Assembly: GCF_030013205.1 (NCBI RefSeq)
Contig: NZ_CP122648.1
Source of the DNA: Escherichia coli
GTDB lineage: Bacteria; Pseudomonadota; Gammaproteobacteria; Enterobacterales; Enterobacteriaceae
Strand: one strand, 5' to 3'
DNA: 64,000 bases
Shown here: in pieces, positions 39,301 to 45,300 of the stretch
Numbering within the stretch: the stretch's first letter is position 1
Layout: each line of letters begins with the position of its first letter
Program-made: the position numbers

Positions 39301-42300
39301 GCGTCCGGGGTGTAAATCTGGCATCCCTACTACGCGCTGCATGTTGGGTAAATTTGCCGTGGTGTGTAATTGTTGGATCGCTAAACTCTCGATCCACAGG
39401 TCATCAGATGCGATGGTAAATACCGCATAGGATAAGGGACGAATATATTTGCCCATGTACCATTCCATTTATACTCGTCATACTTCAAGTTGCATGTACT
39501 GCGGCTGCGTTCGTTCACCCCAGTCACTTACTTATGTAAGCTTCTGGGGATTCACTCGCTTGTCGCCTTCCTGCAACTCGAATTATTTAGAGTATATAAA
39601 TATTAAAAATCAGGAAATGGCAGACGAATCCAGGGCAAGAAAAAAAGAATTAATCCTGGAAAGGTCTGCAAAGAGTCATTGATAAAGGATTTGTCATGAT
39701 TTACCTCCTTGCAGTTTGTGGAATAAGAAAACGCGCACATATTAGAAGGGCGTTATTTTCATTGCAAGCTGGATTTAATGTTGCGGTTTATAACGCATAT
39801 AAAAATTAATAAACCACGCTCCCCGGCATTCAACGCGCTGCTGCTTAACTGTCTGAAAACCATAACGTTCAAAAAAGGGTTTTGCGGTTATGCTGGCGTC
39901 CACCGTAAGTTCGGATTCAGACTTAATCAAAGGTTTTAACAAAGCGCTGGCAACCCCACGGCGGGTGTATTCAGGGTCAACAAATAACATATCGATATAA
40001 TGTTCAATGCGGGAAATAAAACCAACCGGTTGTGCATTAATGATCGCAACCCACACTTGTGATTTCGCGAGTTTCTCCTTCCAGCGAGATTCGTCAATCT
40101 GCGCCCAGGCGGCAATTTGTTGTGGTGAATAATGCTGACTGGCGGTCATCGTAACCGCTCTAATGAAAATAGCGCATAGTTGCTGAAAATCGCCAGGCTG
40201 ATAATCTCTTATTTGTATGTTATTCATAATATAAATTCAAAAACGCATGCGAAACGCTTCTGCCATTTTTCCAATTTTATGCATTTGGTTGTTATCTCGA
40301 GCCAGTTTATGAGGTTCAGGCTTCAGAATGGCAATGAGCAACCATGCTTGCTCATCAAACGCACCCTGACAATATACCAAATGCGCTTCGTCATTCGTTC
40401 TGCTGAATTGGCGCAACTGTGGCGGAAATGGATTATTCACATTTGCCAGATGAATATGAGCAACTCGCTCAAATTTGATTAATGGCCAGGTAAACGAGTC
40501 GTCGTAGAGTGCATCGCGACCAAATATATCTGGCAAAATACCGTCACGCTTATAGGAAATAAAATCCGCCGTTAACGCATCAAGTTCCTCTGCTGTAAGT
40601 TGCAGGCGAATAAGTTTTGTTTTGAATACCCGCATCCTTATTCCTTAAAGTCATTGAAATCATCATCCGTCATATCATTAAGATATTGTTCAGCGCGGCG
40701 TGTAATTTCCTCTAATCTTGCGGCACTCGGACGGAAGCGCGCCTTCACCAGTTTTTTCTCCTCTTGTTCTGCAAGCATGTCCATTAACGCTTCGAATGCG
40801 CTGGCACTTAAGAGATATCCTGCGGGGCGATTATTAGAAAGAACCGCAACCGGTTGATCAATAAAGTATTTTGCTGGATTTTTACGTAACTCAGTGATAT
40901 TGACCGATTTTTCAGCGAGAATTCGATGCATACAGTGATACCCTCATAATAATGCACACCAGAATATACATAATAGTATACATCATAATCCCAGCACCAG
41001 TTGTCTTTCCATTTGCGGGTCAAGCAACGTCACATGCAGCCCCACCAGCCGCACACCGCGCCCGCCGCGACGTTCATCCCAGGTTTTACGCGCGGTGGCA
41101 ATTAAGTCAGCTTTATTCAGCCGCGGCCAGACGTGCTCCTGAGTGGTTTGCTGAAAATCGTCGAACTTTAATTTCACCCCCTGGCGAGCAATCAGTAAAT
41201 CAGGTTTCACCTTTGCCAGACGGCGTTCAAGTTCCGGATACAGCCGCTCGATAATCGCTTCACATTCAGACCAGTGATGAATATCTTCCGCCATCGTGCG
41301 TTCCACGCCGACGGATTTTCGTAACCGTTCGCTGTTAACGTCGCGCTCGTCAATCCCCTGACTACGCTCCCACAAAATGCGGCCAAATTTGCCAAAACGT
41401 TTGAGCAGAGTCACCAGATCACACTTTTGCACATCACCGCAGGTCCGCAGCCCCATCGCTTCCAGTATTGCCGCCGAGACTTTGCCGACGCCGGGAATTT
41501 TTGCCAGCGGTAAGGTTTGCAGAAATGCCGGAACTTCTGCCGGCGTAATCACAAACTGGCCGTTGGGTTTATTCATGTCGGAGGCGATTTTAGCGAGAAA
41601 CTTTACTGGTGCCACGCCCGCAGACGCCGTCAGTTGCAGCTCGTTGAAGATTGTCTGGCGGATTTCCTGGGCGATGAGGGTCGCAGAACCGTGGCAATGG
41701 ACGCTATCAGTGACATCGAGATAGGCTTCATCCAGTGACAACGGTTCAATACGCGAGGTGTAGCGCGAGAAGATTTCACGGATATGATTTGAGGCTTCTT
41801 TGTAGGCGTCAAAGCGCCCCGGAAGCAAGGTGAGATGTGGGCATAATTTGAGCGCCATCCCAGTAGGCATAGCGCTACGTACGCCAAATTTACGCGCGGG
41901 ATAATTGGCGGTGCTGATCACCCCCCGACGTTCGCGGCTGCCGCCAATAGCAATAGGGATATCGCGCAGGGCGGGATTGTCGCGCATCTCCACTGCGGCG
42001 AAAAAGCAGTCCATATCCACATGAATGATTTTACGCATTGCTCACCTCTCAACACTGGTAAAGTATACAGTGATTTCAGGGTTTGAGAAATGCGTAAAGA
42101 TTCAGCATCTAGCGCGTTCGCTGCGAAAGCACCTGCTGCTTATCCAGCTTTTGCACCAGCGGCTGCACCACTTTATCCCCATGCTGACCAAAGTATTGAT
42201 ACAGCGTATCGGACGCACTTTTGGTCAGCACCATAATCTCAATGCGTCGGTTGCCCGCGCTTTGCGGATTTTTCGCGTCCAGCAGCATCTGGTCCGCCAT

Positions 42301-45300
42301 CGCGCTTACCTGCATCACTTTATCTTCCGGCATTCCGGCCTCTTCCAGCACCCGACGGGCCGAAAGCGCGCGATCGCCCGAAAGGTTCCAGTTGTTGTAG
42401 ATATTGTTTTTGTAGGCCATCGCATCGGTATGCCCGGTAATAATAATTTTGTTATCGAGCGAGTCGAACACTGGCGCGAGCTCCACCAGCAAAGTTTTAA
42501 AGAACGGCATAATCTGCGCGCTGCCGCGTTCAAACATATTGCGGTTCTGGTCATCTTTAATCAGCACGCGTAATCCCTGCGGGACAATCTCCATCTCCAG
42601 ATTCGCTTCCATATGTGCATCACGGGCAATGGTGTTGATACTGGTTGCCAACTCGCCAAGCTCGGTGGCGGATTTCTTCTTCAGCAGCGCCGGTTTCTCA
42701 TTCACATCACGCGCTTTTTTCTCCGTCTCTTCCGGCACCGCCACGGTGGCAGGTTTTGGCGGATGAGACGGGCTGATTTTATTTAACGGCGACAGCCCAC
42801 CACCGTTAAAAATCGACTGCCCGTGCAGCGCGGCGATAATGCTTTCACGCTCGGATTTACTGACGCTGTTGACAATCAACTTTATTGTCGTCACCAAAGG
42901 GGCCGAGCGTATTTCCGAGGTTTCTGCCCGCTTTACCCTGGACGCGATGCCTGGCAAACAGATGGCGATTGACGCCGATCTTAACGCCGGGTTGATCAAC
43001 CAGGCGCAGGCGCAAACCCGGCGTAAAGATGTTGCCAGCGAGGCCGATTTCTACGGCGCGATGGACGGGGCATCGAAGTTTGTGCGCGGGGATGCCATCG
43101 CCGGGATGATGATTCTGGCGATCAACCTGATCGGCGGCGTCTGTATCGGGATCTTCAAATACAACCTGAGCGCCGATGCCGCCTTCCAGCAATATGTGCT
43201 GATGACCATCGGCGACGGCCTGGTGGCGCAGATCCCTTCCCTGCTGCTCTCCACCGCGGCGGCGATTATCGTCACCCGCGTCAGCGACAACGGCGATATC
43301 GCCCATGACGTGCGCCACCAGCTGCTGGCAAGCCCGTCGGTGCTCTACACCGCTACCGGAATTATGTTTGTGCTGGCGGTGGTGCCGGGGATGCCGCATC
43401 TGCCGTTTTTGCTGTTCAGCGCCCTGCTTGGTTTTACCGGCTGGCGGATGAGCAAACGCCCGCAGGCGGCGGAGGCGGAAGAGAAAAGCCTCGAAACACT
43501 GACCCGCACTATCACTGAAACCCGCGAGCAACAGGTCAGTTGGGAAACCATTCCGCTGATCGAGCCTATCAGCTTAAGCCTTGGCTACAAGCTGGTGGCA
43601 CTGGTGGATAAAGCGCAGGGGAACCCGCTCACCCAGCGGATTCGCGGCGTGCGGCAGGTGATATCCGACGGTAACGGCGTACTGCTGCCGGAGATCCGTA
43701 TTCGGGAAAACTTCCGTCTCAAGCCCAGCCAGTACGCCATTTTCATCAACGGCATAAAGGCTGATGAAGCGGATATTCCGGTGGATAAACTGATGGCGCT
43801 GCCCTCCAGCGAAACCTACGGCGAGATTGACGGCGTGCTGGGGAACGACCCGGCGTACGGGATGCCCGTGACCTGGATTCAGCCTGCGCAGAAAGCGAAG
43901 GCGCTGAATATGGGGTATCAGGTGATCGACAGCGCCAGCGTGATTGCTACCCATGTGAACAAGATTGTGCGCAGCTATATTCCTGATTTGTTTAACTATG
44001 ATGATATTACTCAGCTGCATAACCGTTTATCGTCGATGGCTCCACGGCTGGCGGAAGATTTGAGCGCGGCGCTGAATTACAGCCAGCTGCTGAAAGTGTA
44101 CCGCGCGCTGCTGACCGAAGGCGTTTCCCTGCGCGATATCGTCACTATCGCCACCGTGCTGGTTGCCAGTAGCGCGGTGACCAAAGATCATATTCTGCTG
44201 GCGGCAGATGTGCGCCTGGCGCTGCGGCGCAGCATTACCCATCCGTTCGTTCGCAAGCAGGAGCTGACGGTGTATACGCTGAATAATGAGCTGGAAAATC
44301 TGCTGACCAACGTGGTGAATCAGGCGCAACAGGCCGGCAAAGTGATGCTCGATAGCGTGCCGGTGGACCCGAATATGCTCAACCAGTTCCAGAGCACGAT
44401 GCCGCAGGTGAAGGAGCAGATGAAAGCGGCGGGGAAAGACCCTGTGCTGCTGGTGCCGCCGCAGTTGCGTCCTTTGCTGGCGCGTTATGCAAGGTTGTTT
44501 GCGCCGGGGCTGCATGTGCTGTCGTATAACGAAGTGCCGGACGAGCTGGAGTTGAAGATTATGGGGGCGTTGAGTTGATTGAGGAATCTTTTCCATGCTT
44601 TGCAGCACCTGACACCATTAATTGACGTCACACTGCAAAGAGACTACGATGACACCATACAATGATGTCATGGATTGATAGTATGATTAAGGTCAGCGCG
44701 CTAGGCTCTCGTCATAGAAAAACATTCGACGATGTAATGACGGAGCCGCCAAAATCTGGAATTAAATGGGATGATGTTGTTGCACTCATTAAAGCTGTGG
44801 GTGGAACAATAAAAAATAACAACGGCTCCAGACGAAAATTTCAGATTGGAACGACCAAATTCAGCACACATGAGCCACATCCAAAGAATGTGATGGATAA
44901 AGGCGCAGTAGCAGGTCTTAAGGAGTGGTTTGTTAACTGTGTAGGGGTAGATTATGAATAAAGCATCGAACATTATCACAATTAAAGGTCAACCAGCCGC
45001 AGTGACATTTGAAGCCGATATCAACGCATTTCGCGGCAAGTTCCTCAATGTAAACGGTTATTGTGACTTTGTAGCCACAAGTATTGAGGCATTATATCGT
45101 GAAGGCGAAAGCGCGCTGGATGAGTGGATGGCGGATTGTGAAGAGGACGGTATTGCCCCTTTTCGTGAAGAAGAAGAGCAAAAACGCCTGACGCTTCGTG
45201 TTCCTCATCACATTGATTCGCGGCTGACCATCGTCGCCAGACAACATTCCATTTCAAAAAACCAGCTCATTGTTGATGTCTTAGAACGTGAGTTTTCAGC

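What the first reader, a model, noticed from the sequence alone, without database searches (positions are those of the whole stretch)
42109..44578. Flag-2 lateral-flagella deletion scar: overlapping lafU and lfhA fragments
The MotB-like lafU (minus strand) and FlhA-like lfhA (plus strand) fragments overlap head-to-head around 42839..42999, and lfhA lacks about 115 N-terminal codons. This is the signature of the large Flag-2 cluster deletion, with the junction near 42870.
Basis: partly seen in the sequence, partly recalled or inferred. Interest (0 to 1): 0.3.

Follow-up and report, generated by a model that had tools for sequence, protein, structure and literature searches.

The report
Flag-2 lateral-flagella deletion scar
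This is the well-known scar left in most E. coli when the 35-kb second (lateral) flagellar gene cluster was deleted, so it is ordinary, although the exact same break point also occurs in Citrobacter and Kluyvera, which is unexplained.

Summary
The window is E. coli, 100% identical here to strain K_EC180.

- **Fragments.** A 3' fragment of lafU (MotB-like, minus strand, 42109..42877) abuts a 3' fragment of lfhA (FlhA-like, plus strand, 42875..44578).
- **Junction.** Alignment to an intact Flag-2 locus puts the junction at a shared 3-bp ATC (42875..42877).
- **What was lost.** 35,027 bp are missing, along with 52 N-terminal lafU codons and 127 lfhA codons.
- **The "overlap".** The 42839..42999 overlap is only mechanical ORF extension into the other gene's antisense.
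- **Frequency.** The same junction is contiguous in 4,085 of 5,426 complete E. coli genomes, K-12 (fhiA/mbhA) included. 1,321 genomes keep the intact arrangement.
- **Novelty.** Already known (Ren et al. 2005).

Two side results seem new. Both remnants are undecayed (dN/dS about 0.03, no indels). K-12's scar locus equals an intact-cluster strain over 7 kb apart from the deletion. The nucleotide-identical junction also occurs in E. albertii, Kluyvera and Citrobacter, with genus-specific flanks. I could not decide between one old deletion allele kept fresh by recombination and a precise recurrent deletion.

The parts
42109..42877 (-). lafU (MotB-like lateral-flagellar stator) 3' remnant: codons 53/54-307 plus stop. 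It lacks the N-terminal transmembrane/plug segment.
   Evidence: It is 97.2% identical to L001 10819..11696, part of full-length lafU in strain 571. Pfam finds OmpA only. Full-length relatives carry PF13677 MotB_plug and truncated ones do not.
42875..42877 (.). Deletion junction: 3-bp ATC shared by both parental sequences.
   Evidence: The three-way alignment of window, lafU side and lfhA side places it here. The same junction is present in the seven other scar-bearing E. coli loci printed (plus EcN by identity to one of them) and in E. albertii, Kluyvera and Citrobacter.
42866..42877 (.). Retained lafU-type copy of the 12-bp imperfect direct repeat. It reads CTGTTGACAATC here; the lfhA copy in intact loci reads CTGATGATCATC.
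   Evidence: The repeat is statistically unremarkable. There are 1,320 lafU x lfhA 12-mer pairs matching at 9 or more of 12 positions.
42878..44578 (+). lfhA (FlhA-like export-gate protein) 3' remnant: codons 128-697 plus stop. It lacks the first 127 codons, which hold the N-terminal transmembrane helices.
   Evidence: It is 94.8% identical to L001 46712..48546. It matches FHIPEP profile positions 99-656 of 657. PGAP marks it as a pseudogene missing its N-terminus.
42839..42877 (+). Spurious 13-codon N-terminal extension of the mechanical lfhA ORF (MLSRSDLLTLLTI), encoded by the antisense of lafU.
   Evidence: The ATG is not conserved in Kluyvera or C. gillenii.
42878..42999 (-). Spurious upstream extension of the lafU ORF, encoded by the antisense of lfhA. 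PGAP uses the GTG at 42894 as the start.

Best explanation
**What it is.** This is the Flag-2 deletion scar. In the ancestral arrangement about 35 kb of lateral-flagellar genes lie between dinB and the hicAB/yafL side. They are bounded by lafU, the last gene of the motor operon, and lfhA, the last gene of the export operon. Both genes are transcribed outward.

**What happened.** A deletion joined lafU codon 53 to lfhA codon 127/128 at a 3-bp ATC. It removed all other genes, both 5' ends and all native promoters. What remains are two promoterless, N-terminally truncated fragments arranged head to head. This step is shown by alignment.

**Are the remnants functional? (inferred).** Probably not.
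- LafU' has lost its membrane anchor, plug and channel residue.
- LfhA' has lost its first transmembrane helices.

**Why the remnants look undecayed (inferred).**
- The scar and the intact cluster segregate as two alleles of one locus.
- Their flanks recombine freely.
- So remnant sequence has recently been, or is regularly replaced by, sequence that was under selection inside an intact cluster.
For: **The deletion**
- The endpoints are placed at single-base resolution and the missing stretch is 35,027 bp.
- The intact locus has the same neighbours, dinB on one side and hicAB/yafL on the other.
- The junction is identical in K-12 and in 4,085 of 5,426 genomes. 1,321 of 5,426 keep the intact lafU-lafT arrangement.
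- Domain truncations are shown.
- Literature: K-12 fhiA/mbhA are the terminal remnants of Flag-2 (PMC3032704). The lfhA-lafU deletion is widespread (PMC6993521). Flag-2-negative E. albertii carry the same 2.5-kb remnant (PMC11420993).

**Remnants are young or refreshed**
- K-12 is identical to intact-cluster strain BUCT2930 at 3541/3541 bp left and 3542/3542 bp right of the ATC.
- K-12's lfhA remnant is 100% identical to the intact lfhA of strain 1303.
- Scar and intact alleles are interspersed and mosaic.

**Decay does occur**
- E. albertii has a 22-bp frameshift in its lfhA remnant, yet still gives dN/dS of 0.04 against E. coli.
- A K-12-like allele carries an 87-bp deletion in lfhA'.
Against: - Nothing argues against the scar itself.
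- The 'non-functional remnant' part is weaker. All nine scar alleles I compared (the eight plus EcN, which is identical to VTB97379v over both fragments) are open and free of indels.
- Those alleles give dN/dS of 0.027 (lfhA) and 0.034 (lafU). That matches intact alleles and neighbouring dinB.
- The remnants are also open, at exactly the same length, in Kluyvera and Citrobacter.
- My rough population-genetic estimate is only an inference. It suggests that genome-average recombination rates are barely enough to keep an old pseudogene this clean.
Confidence: 0.95

Rival explanations
1. **Recurrent, nucleotide-precise deletion.** Some specific mechanism repeatedly excises Flag-2 between the same two sites in lafU and lfhA. 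On this view scars arise independently in many lineages and genera, and each scar is young.
For: - The identical junction sits in genus-specific flanks (dS 0.9-2.5) in E. coli, E. albertii, Kluyvera ascorbata and two Citrobacter lineages.
- In K. ascorbata the scar and the conspecific intact lafU are identical for at least 80 bp up to the junction. That stretch includes a genus-specific base 4 bp from the junction.
- K-12 has a perfect intact progenitor, with 0 differences in about 7 kb.
- The T/C polymorphism 9 bp from the junction occurs in both scar and intact alleles and tracks the related allele.
- Within 30 bp of the junction, 13 variable sites lie in synonymous-only codons and 3 in codons with an amino-acid change.
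- Intermediate forms are rare (PMC5422975).
Against: - No mechanism is visible.
- The microhomology is 3 bp perfect and 9 of 12 imperfect. There are 1,320 equally good lafU x lfhA pairs, exact 10-13-mers shared between the two ends, and identical 37-nt REP copies inside the cluster.
- There are no terminal inverted repeats.
- No integrase or recombinase is annotated in six intact clusters.
- My comparison of the two sites with the E. coli dif site was done by eye and found no resemblance.
Confidence: 0.3
2. **The remnants are still working genes.** After an old deletion, truncated LfhA' and/or LafU' were kept by purifying selection for some new role.
For: - dN/dS is about 0.03 among scar alleles, and singleton variants split N20:S90.
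- There was no net indel in the roughly 66 scar genomes listed across the hit rankings.
- The ORF is exactly 566 codons in four taxa.
- The number of distinct protein variants per residue is similar to DinB.
Against: - The same low dN/dS appears in an E. albertii allele that is frameshifted.
- All 'K-12-private' amino-acid changes are present in an intact allele, so the signal is inherited from intact genes.
- LfhA' has no start codon conserved across genera.
- Native promoters are deleted, and the only sigma-70-like match upstream of lfhA' is weak.
- lafU is reported as not detectably expressed (PMC8824477).
- Essential N-terminal parts are missing.
Confidence: 0.08
3. **Ordinary divergent overlapping genes, or an assembly or annotation artefact.** On this view there is no deletion scar.
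For: The mechanical ORFs overlap by 161 bp, and PGAP annotates lafU as an intact 261-aa CDS.
Against: - The overlap region on each strand is simply the antisense of the other gene's homologous sequence.
- The same sequence is present in thousands of complete genomes.
- The missing 35 kb is found at exactly this position in 1,321 genomes.
Confidence: 0.01

Closest known systems
E. coli K-12 fhiA (lfhA) / mbhA (lafU) pseudogene pair: the Flag-2 deletion scar of Ren, Beatson, Parkhill and Pallen, J Bacteriol 2005;187:1430
   Same: - The junction sequence is identical. The 80-bp probe matches BW25113 at 100%.
- The neighbours, dinB on one side, and the gene orientations are the same.
- The same truncated products are predicted.
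   Different: - The allele differs from K-12 at 82 of 1,701 lfhA sites and 21 of 765 lafU sites, almost all synonymous.
- Downstream of lfhA this strain has hicAB where K-12 has rayT.
- I could not read Ren et al. itself. What it says is taken from papers that cite it.
Intact Flag-2 / lateral flagellar cluster (E. coli 042, W, ST131, O111; the laf systems of Vibrio parahaemolyticus and Aeromonas)
   Same: The two remnants are the 3' ends of its terminal genes lafU and lfhA, at the same chromosomal site.
   Different: All of the roughly 40 genes between them, both 5' ends and the promoters are gone. No flagellar function is possible.
lfhA-lafU 'en bloc' deletions reported across Enterobacterales (De Maayer et al. 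2020, PMC6993521)
   Same: The same pair of truncated genes is reported in Escherichia, Shigella and Citrobacter Clade A.
   Different: The passages of that paper returned by my term searches report presence by BLAST. They attribute the deletion to direct repeats at its ends and do not mention a shared break point. Here the junction is shown to be nucleotide-identical in Kluyvera and two Citrobacter lineages, with open 566-codon remnants.

Membership tests
Flag-2 lfhA-lafU deletion scar | A 3' fragment of an FlhA-family gene (lfhA) lacking its N-terminus. | tested here: met
   It matches FHIPEP profile positions 99-656 of 657 and aligns to codons 128-697 of the 697-aa LfhA.
Flag-2 lfhA-lafU deletion scar | A 3' fragment of the MotB-like lafU lacking its N-terminus, head to head with lfhA and next to dinB. 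| tested here: met
   Only an OmpA domain is found. The fragment aligns to codons 53/54-307. dinB lies at 40983..42038.
Flag-2 lfhA-lafU deletion scar | The same junction as K-12 fhiA/mbhA. | tested here: met
   The 80-bp junction probe is 100% identical in BW25113. Junction alignment of eight scar-bearing E. coli sequences, the window plus seven loci, agrees.
Flag-2 lfhA-lafU deletion scar | An intact cluster occupies the same site in other strains. | tested here: met
   Seven intact loci were fetched. 1,321 of 5,426 genomes have the intact arrangement.
Functional FlhA export-gate protein | A complete N-terminal transmembrane region with all eight helices (from my own knowledge of FlhA). | tested here: not met
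   The first 127 codons are absent, and FHIPEP profile positions 1-98 are unmatched.
Functional MotB-type stator subunit | An N-terminal transmembrane helix with the channel Asp, plus the plug (PF13677). | tested here: not met
   Residues 1-52, which include ...FADFTLAMMALFMTLW, are deleted. PF13677 is absent from the truncated forms and present in full-length ones.
Excisable genomic island (site-specific recombination) | A recombinase gene together with matching att-like repeats at both ends. | tested here: not met
   No integrase or recombinase is annotated in six intact clusters. There are no terminal direct or inverted repeats beyond a 9-of-12 match.

The most novel reading that the evidence does not exclude
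**The reading.** The Flag-2 cluster may be lost again and again by a nucleotide-precise excision between the same two sites in lafU and lfhA. This would happen independently in Escherichia, Citrobacter and Kluyvera, through a mechanism not yet recognised.

**What it would explain.**
- The identical junction sitting in genus-specific flanks.
- The existence of perfect intact progenitors.
- The lack of intermediate forms.
- The undecayed remnants.

**The less novel alternative.** A single old deletion allele has been kept as a presence/absence polymorphism across genera, with recombination reaching right up to the junction.
Probability: 0.3. Interest if true: 0.6.

Novelty: already known. Interest (0 to 1): 0.25.

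Why it matters
**For this window.** It matters little. The region is the standard fhiA/mbhA (lfhA/lafU) remnant found in three quarters of E. coli. The practical consequences concern annotation:
- The lafU CDS called by PGAP, with a GTG start inside lfhA-derived sequence, is probably not a real gene.
- The 579-codon lfhA ORF is probably not a real gene either.
- The strain cannot make lateral flagella.

**The wider point, if followed up.**
- A 35-kb presence/absence polymorphism carries one and the same break point in at least three genera.
- Its remnants show no decay.
- This makes it a clean natural test of how far homologous recombination can keep 'dead' DNA fresh.
- Alternatively, it may be a sign of an unrecognised precise deletion process.

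Tried and rejected
- **Ren et al. 2005.** The paper (PMC545627) is not held, so its content is cited second-hand.
- **Genome-contig scan.** It returned only three useful loci.
- **Close K-12 relatives.** I tried to collect many through an exact-protein look-up. It gave only five places, too few for a test of scar-restricted mutations.
- **Cluster sizes.** Distinct variants per residue are LafU' 24, LfhA about 20 and DinB 18. This is too crude to separate neutrality from constraint.
- **Promoter scan.** Only a weak 9-of-12 match lies upstream of the lfhA ORF (42813..42840), and no match lies upstream of the lafU remnant's start. This is not evidence of expression.
- **Excision mechanism.** I looked for terminal inverted repeats, long direct repeats and a recombinase gene, and found nothing. 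I also checked for dif-like sites by eye and found none. A 6-bp inverted repeat across the E. coli junction (GACAAT-N7-ATTGTC) is absent in Kluyvera and was dismissed as chance.
- **Low dN/dS as a sign of function.** I first read the low pairwise dN/dS as a sign of function. I rejected that after two results:
  - The frameshifted E. albertii allele gives the same value.
  - K-12's 'private' changes turned up in intact alleles.
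Full report
**What is in the window.** The region is E. coli and is 100% identical to strain K_EC180 over 42000..44700. Mechanical ORFs run 42109..42999 on the minus strand and 42839..44578 on the plus strand. Pfam finds only an OmpA domain in the first. The second matches the FHIPEP profile from position 99 to 656 of 657. The neighbours are dinB (40983..42038, minus) on one side and hicA/hicB, then yafL, on the other. PGAP annotates the plus-strand gene as FlhA 'missing N-terminus'. It calls lafU as a 261-aa CDS starting at a GTG at 42894.

**Placing the deletion.**
- Strain 571 carries the complete cluster between the same neighbours.
- Window 42000..42877 aligns without gaps to its lafU side at 97.2%. 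Window 42866..44700 aligns to its lfhA side at 94.8%.
- The base-by-base comparison puts the crossover in a 3-bp ATC at 42875..42877. It lies within a 12-bp imperfect repeat, CTGTTGACAATC against CTGATGATCATC, matching at 9 of 12 positions.
- The missing stretch is 35,027 bp.
- LafU (307 aa) keeps residues 53/54-307. It has lost the transmembrane helix and plug; PF13677 is present only in full-length relatives.
- LfhA (697 aa) keeps residues 128-697.
127 lfhA codons are missing, not about 115.

**How common it is, and what is known.**
- An 80-bp probe across the junction is contiguous in 4,085 of 5,426 complete E. coli genomes, including K-12 BW25113 at 100% identity.
- A probe for the intact lafU-lafT arrangement is found in 1,321 genomes. 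The two states together account for 99.6% of genomes.
- Archer et al. 2011 (PMC3032704) describe K-12 fhiA and mbhA as the terminal remnants of Flag-2, citing Ren et al. 2005.
- De Maayer et al. 2020 (PMC6993521) report the lfhA-lafU deletion in many Escherichia, Shigella and Citrobacter strains, and mention direct repeats at its ends.
- Carter et al. 2024 (PMC11420993) report the same 2.5-kb remnant in Flag-2-negative E. albertii.
- The finding is therefore correct and already known.

**An unexpected property: the remnants do not look like old pseudogenes.**
- In the eight scar-bearing E. coli loci, both fragments are open and free of indels, although the alleles differ by 4-6%. EcN, fetched later, adds no further allele, since it is identical to VTB97379v over both fragments.
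- dN/dS among scar alleles is 0.027 for lfhA and 0.034 for lafU. That is the same as among intact alleles (0.029, 0.041) and as dinB (0.022).
- Variants seen in a single scar allele split N20:S90.
- About 66 scar genomes listed across the hit rankings show no net length change.

**Why low dN/dS does not prove function.**
- E. albertii NBRC 107761 has the same junction and a 22-bp frameshifting deletion in its lfhA remnant. It still gives dN/dS of 0.035-0.057 against E. coli, even downstream of the frameshift.
- K-12's lfhA remnant is 100% identical to the intact lfhA of strain 1303.
- K-12's whole locus equals the intact-cluster strain BUCT2930 at 3541/3541 bp to the left and 3542/3542 bp to the right of the ATC.
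- Scar and intact alleles are interspersed and mosaic. EcN, a scar strain, is nearest to ST131, an intact strain, with blocks of identity between them.
- So the clean state of the remnants reflects very recent shared history with intact genes.
- Decay does happen. One K-12-like allele has an 87-bp deletion in lfhA'.
- No start codon for LfhA' is conserved across genera.
- lafU is reported as not detectably expressed in the laboratory (PMC8824477).

**The same break point in other genera.**
- Truncated LafU proteins lacking PF13677 turned up in Citrobacter and Kluyvera.
- Their loci show lfhA and lafU fragments head to head next to dinB. The junction is colinear with the window's to the nucleotide...ACAAT[C/T]|AACTT....
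- In E. coli, K. ascorbata, a Citrobacter 'amalonaticus' lineage and C. gillenii, the lfhA remnant is exactly 566 codons plus stop from N128. The lafU remnant starts at V54, and all are open.
- Synonymous divergence between genera is saturated (dS 0.9-2.5), with dN/dS of 0.03-0.09.
- Within 30 bp of the junction, 13 variable sites lie in synonymous-only codons and 3 in codons with an amino-acid change.
- In K. ascorbata the scar's LafU' is identical at 276 of 277 residues to the conspecific full-length protein. The DNA is identical for at least 80 bp up to the junction, including a genus-specific base 4 bp away.

**What this could mean.** A generic microhomology event cannot explain repeated use of this site:
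- lafU and lfhA share 1,320 12-mer pairs that match equally well.
- Exact 10-13-mers are shared between the cluster's two ends.
- Identical 37-nt REP copies lie inside the cluster.
- There are no terminal inverted repeats, and no recombinase is annotated.

Two readings remain.
- **One old deletion allele.** It persists alongside the intact cluster in several genera. Recombination homogenises the flanks up to the junction within each species.
- **A precise recurrent deletion.** Its mechanism is unknown.

The near-junction sharing of variants between scar and intact alleles leans towards recurrence. The lack of any mechanism and the ordinariness of the repeat lean towards a single origin. I rate them about 0.6 to 0.3, with retained function of the remnants below 0.1. 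None of this changes the verdict on the finding itself.

Noticed in passing
Window 42875..42877; loci L018 (3713..3730), L101-L103 (about 5000), L104 and L105 (about 5005): The Flag-2 scar junction is identical to the nucleotide in E. albertii, Kluyvera ascorbata and two Citrobacter lineages. The flanks are genus-specific (dS above 0.9), and the remnants are open, with lfhA' exactly 566 codons. I did not find this stated in the passages of the papers I searched.
   Followed up: partly
L003 (K-12 BW25113) against L109 (E. coli BUCT2930) and L100 (strain 1303): K-12's scar locus differs from an intact-Flag-2 phylogroup-A-type strain only by the 35-kb deletion, with 0 mismatches in about 7 kb. 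Against strain 1303 the lfhA side is 100% identical, but the yafP-dinB-lafU side is only 97.7%, with the switch falling at the junction.
   Followed up: yes
L018 about 4654 (equivalent to window about 43808..43829): The E. albertii type strain carries a 22-bp frameshifting deletion in the lfhA remnant and insertions near the lafU 3' end. This is real decay of the scar in that lineage.
   Followed up: partly
Window 44662..45310, compared with L003 5466..5963: Downstream of lfhA this strain has a hicA/hicB toxin-antitoxin pair where K-12, O157, ST131 and 1303 have rayT, the REP-associated transposase. Other strains have neither. K-12-type loci also have yafQ-dinJ between yafL and dpaA, which this window lacks. 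This is a small hot spot of cassette replacement.
   Followed up: no
Window 38317..39468 and upstream: The rtcB-family RNA ligase and prfH are intact here, whereas in K-12, 1303 and BUCT2930 they are truncated and fused remnants. yafN/yafO are present here and in K-12 but absent from strains 571, O111, ST131 and EcN.
   Followed up: no
Window 42047..42066: The sequence CACTGTATACTTTACCAGTG (minus strand) lies in the lafU-dinB spacer. From my own knowledge it matches the dinB LexA (SOS) box. The scar leaves the dinB control region untouched.
   Followed up: no
L001 17208, 22943, 28008, 34887, 41932: REP-like 37-nt elements sit in the intergenic gaps of the intact Flag-2 cluster, and two copies are 100% identical. 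They would be better substrates for deletion than the actual junction repeat.
   Followed up: no
(loci L010, L011, L012, L100): Many 'intact' Flag-2 clusters carry inactivating lesions. O111:H8 has an internal stop in flgK, strain 1303 has a frameshifted fliH, and AVS0787 and Z1323HEC0462 have IS1 and IS3 insertions. The cluster is decaying in place in some lineages that have not acquired the scar.
   Followed up: no
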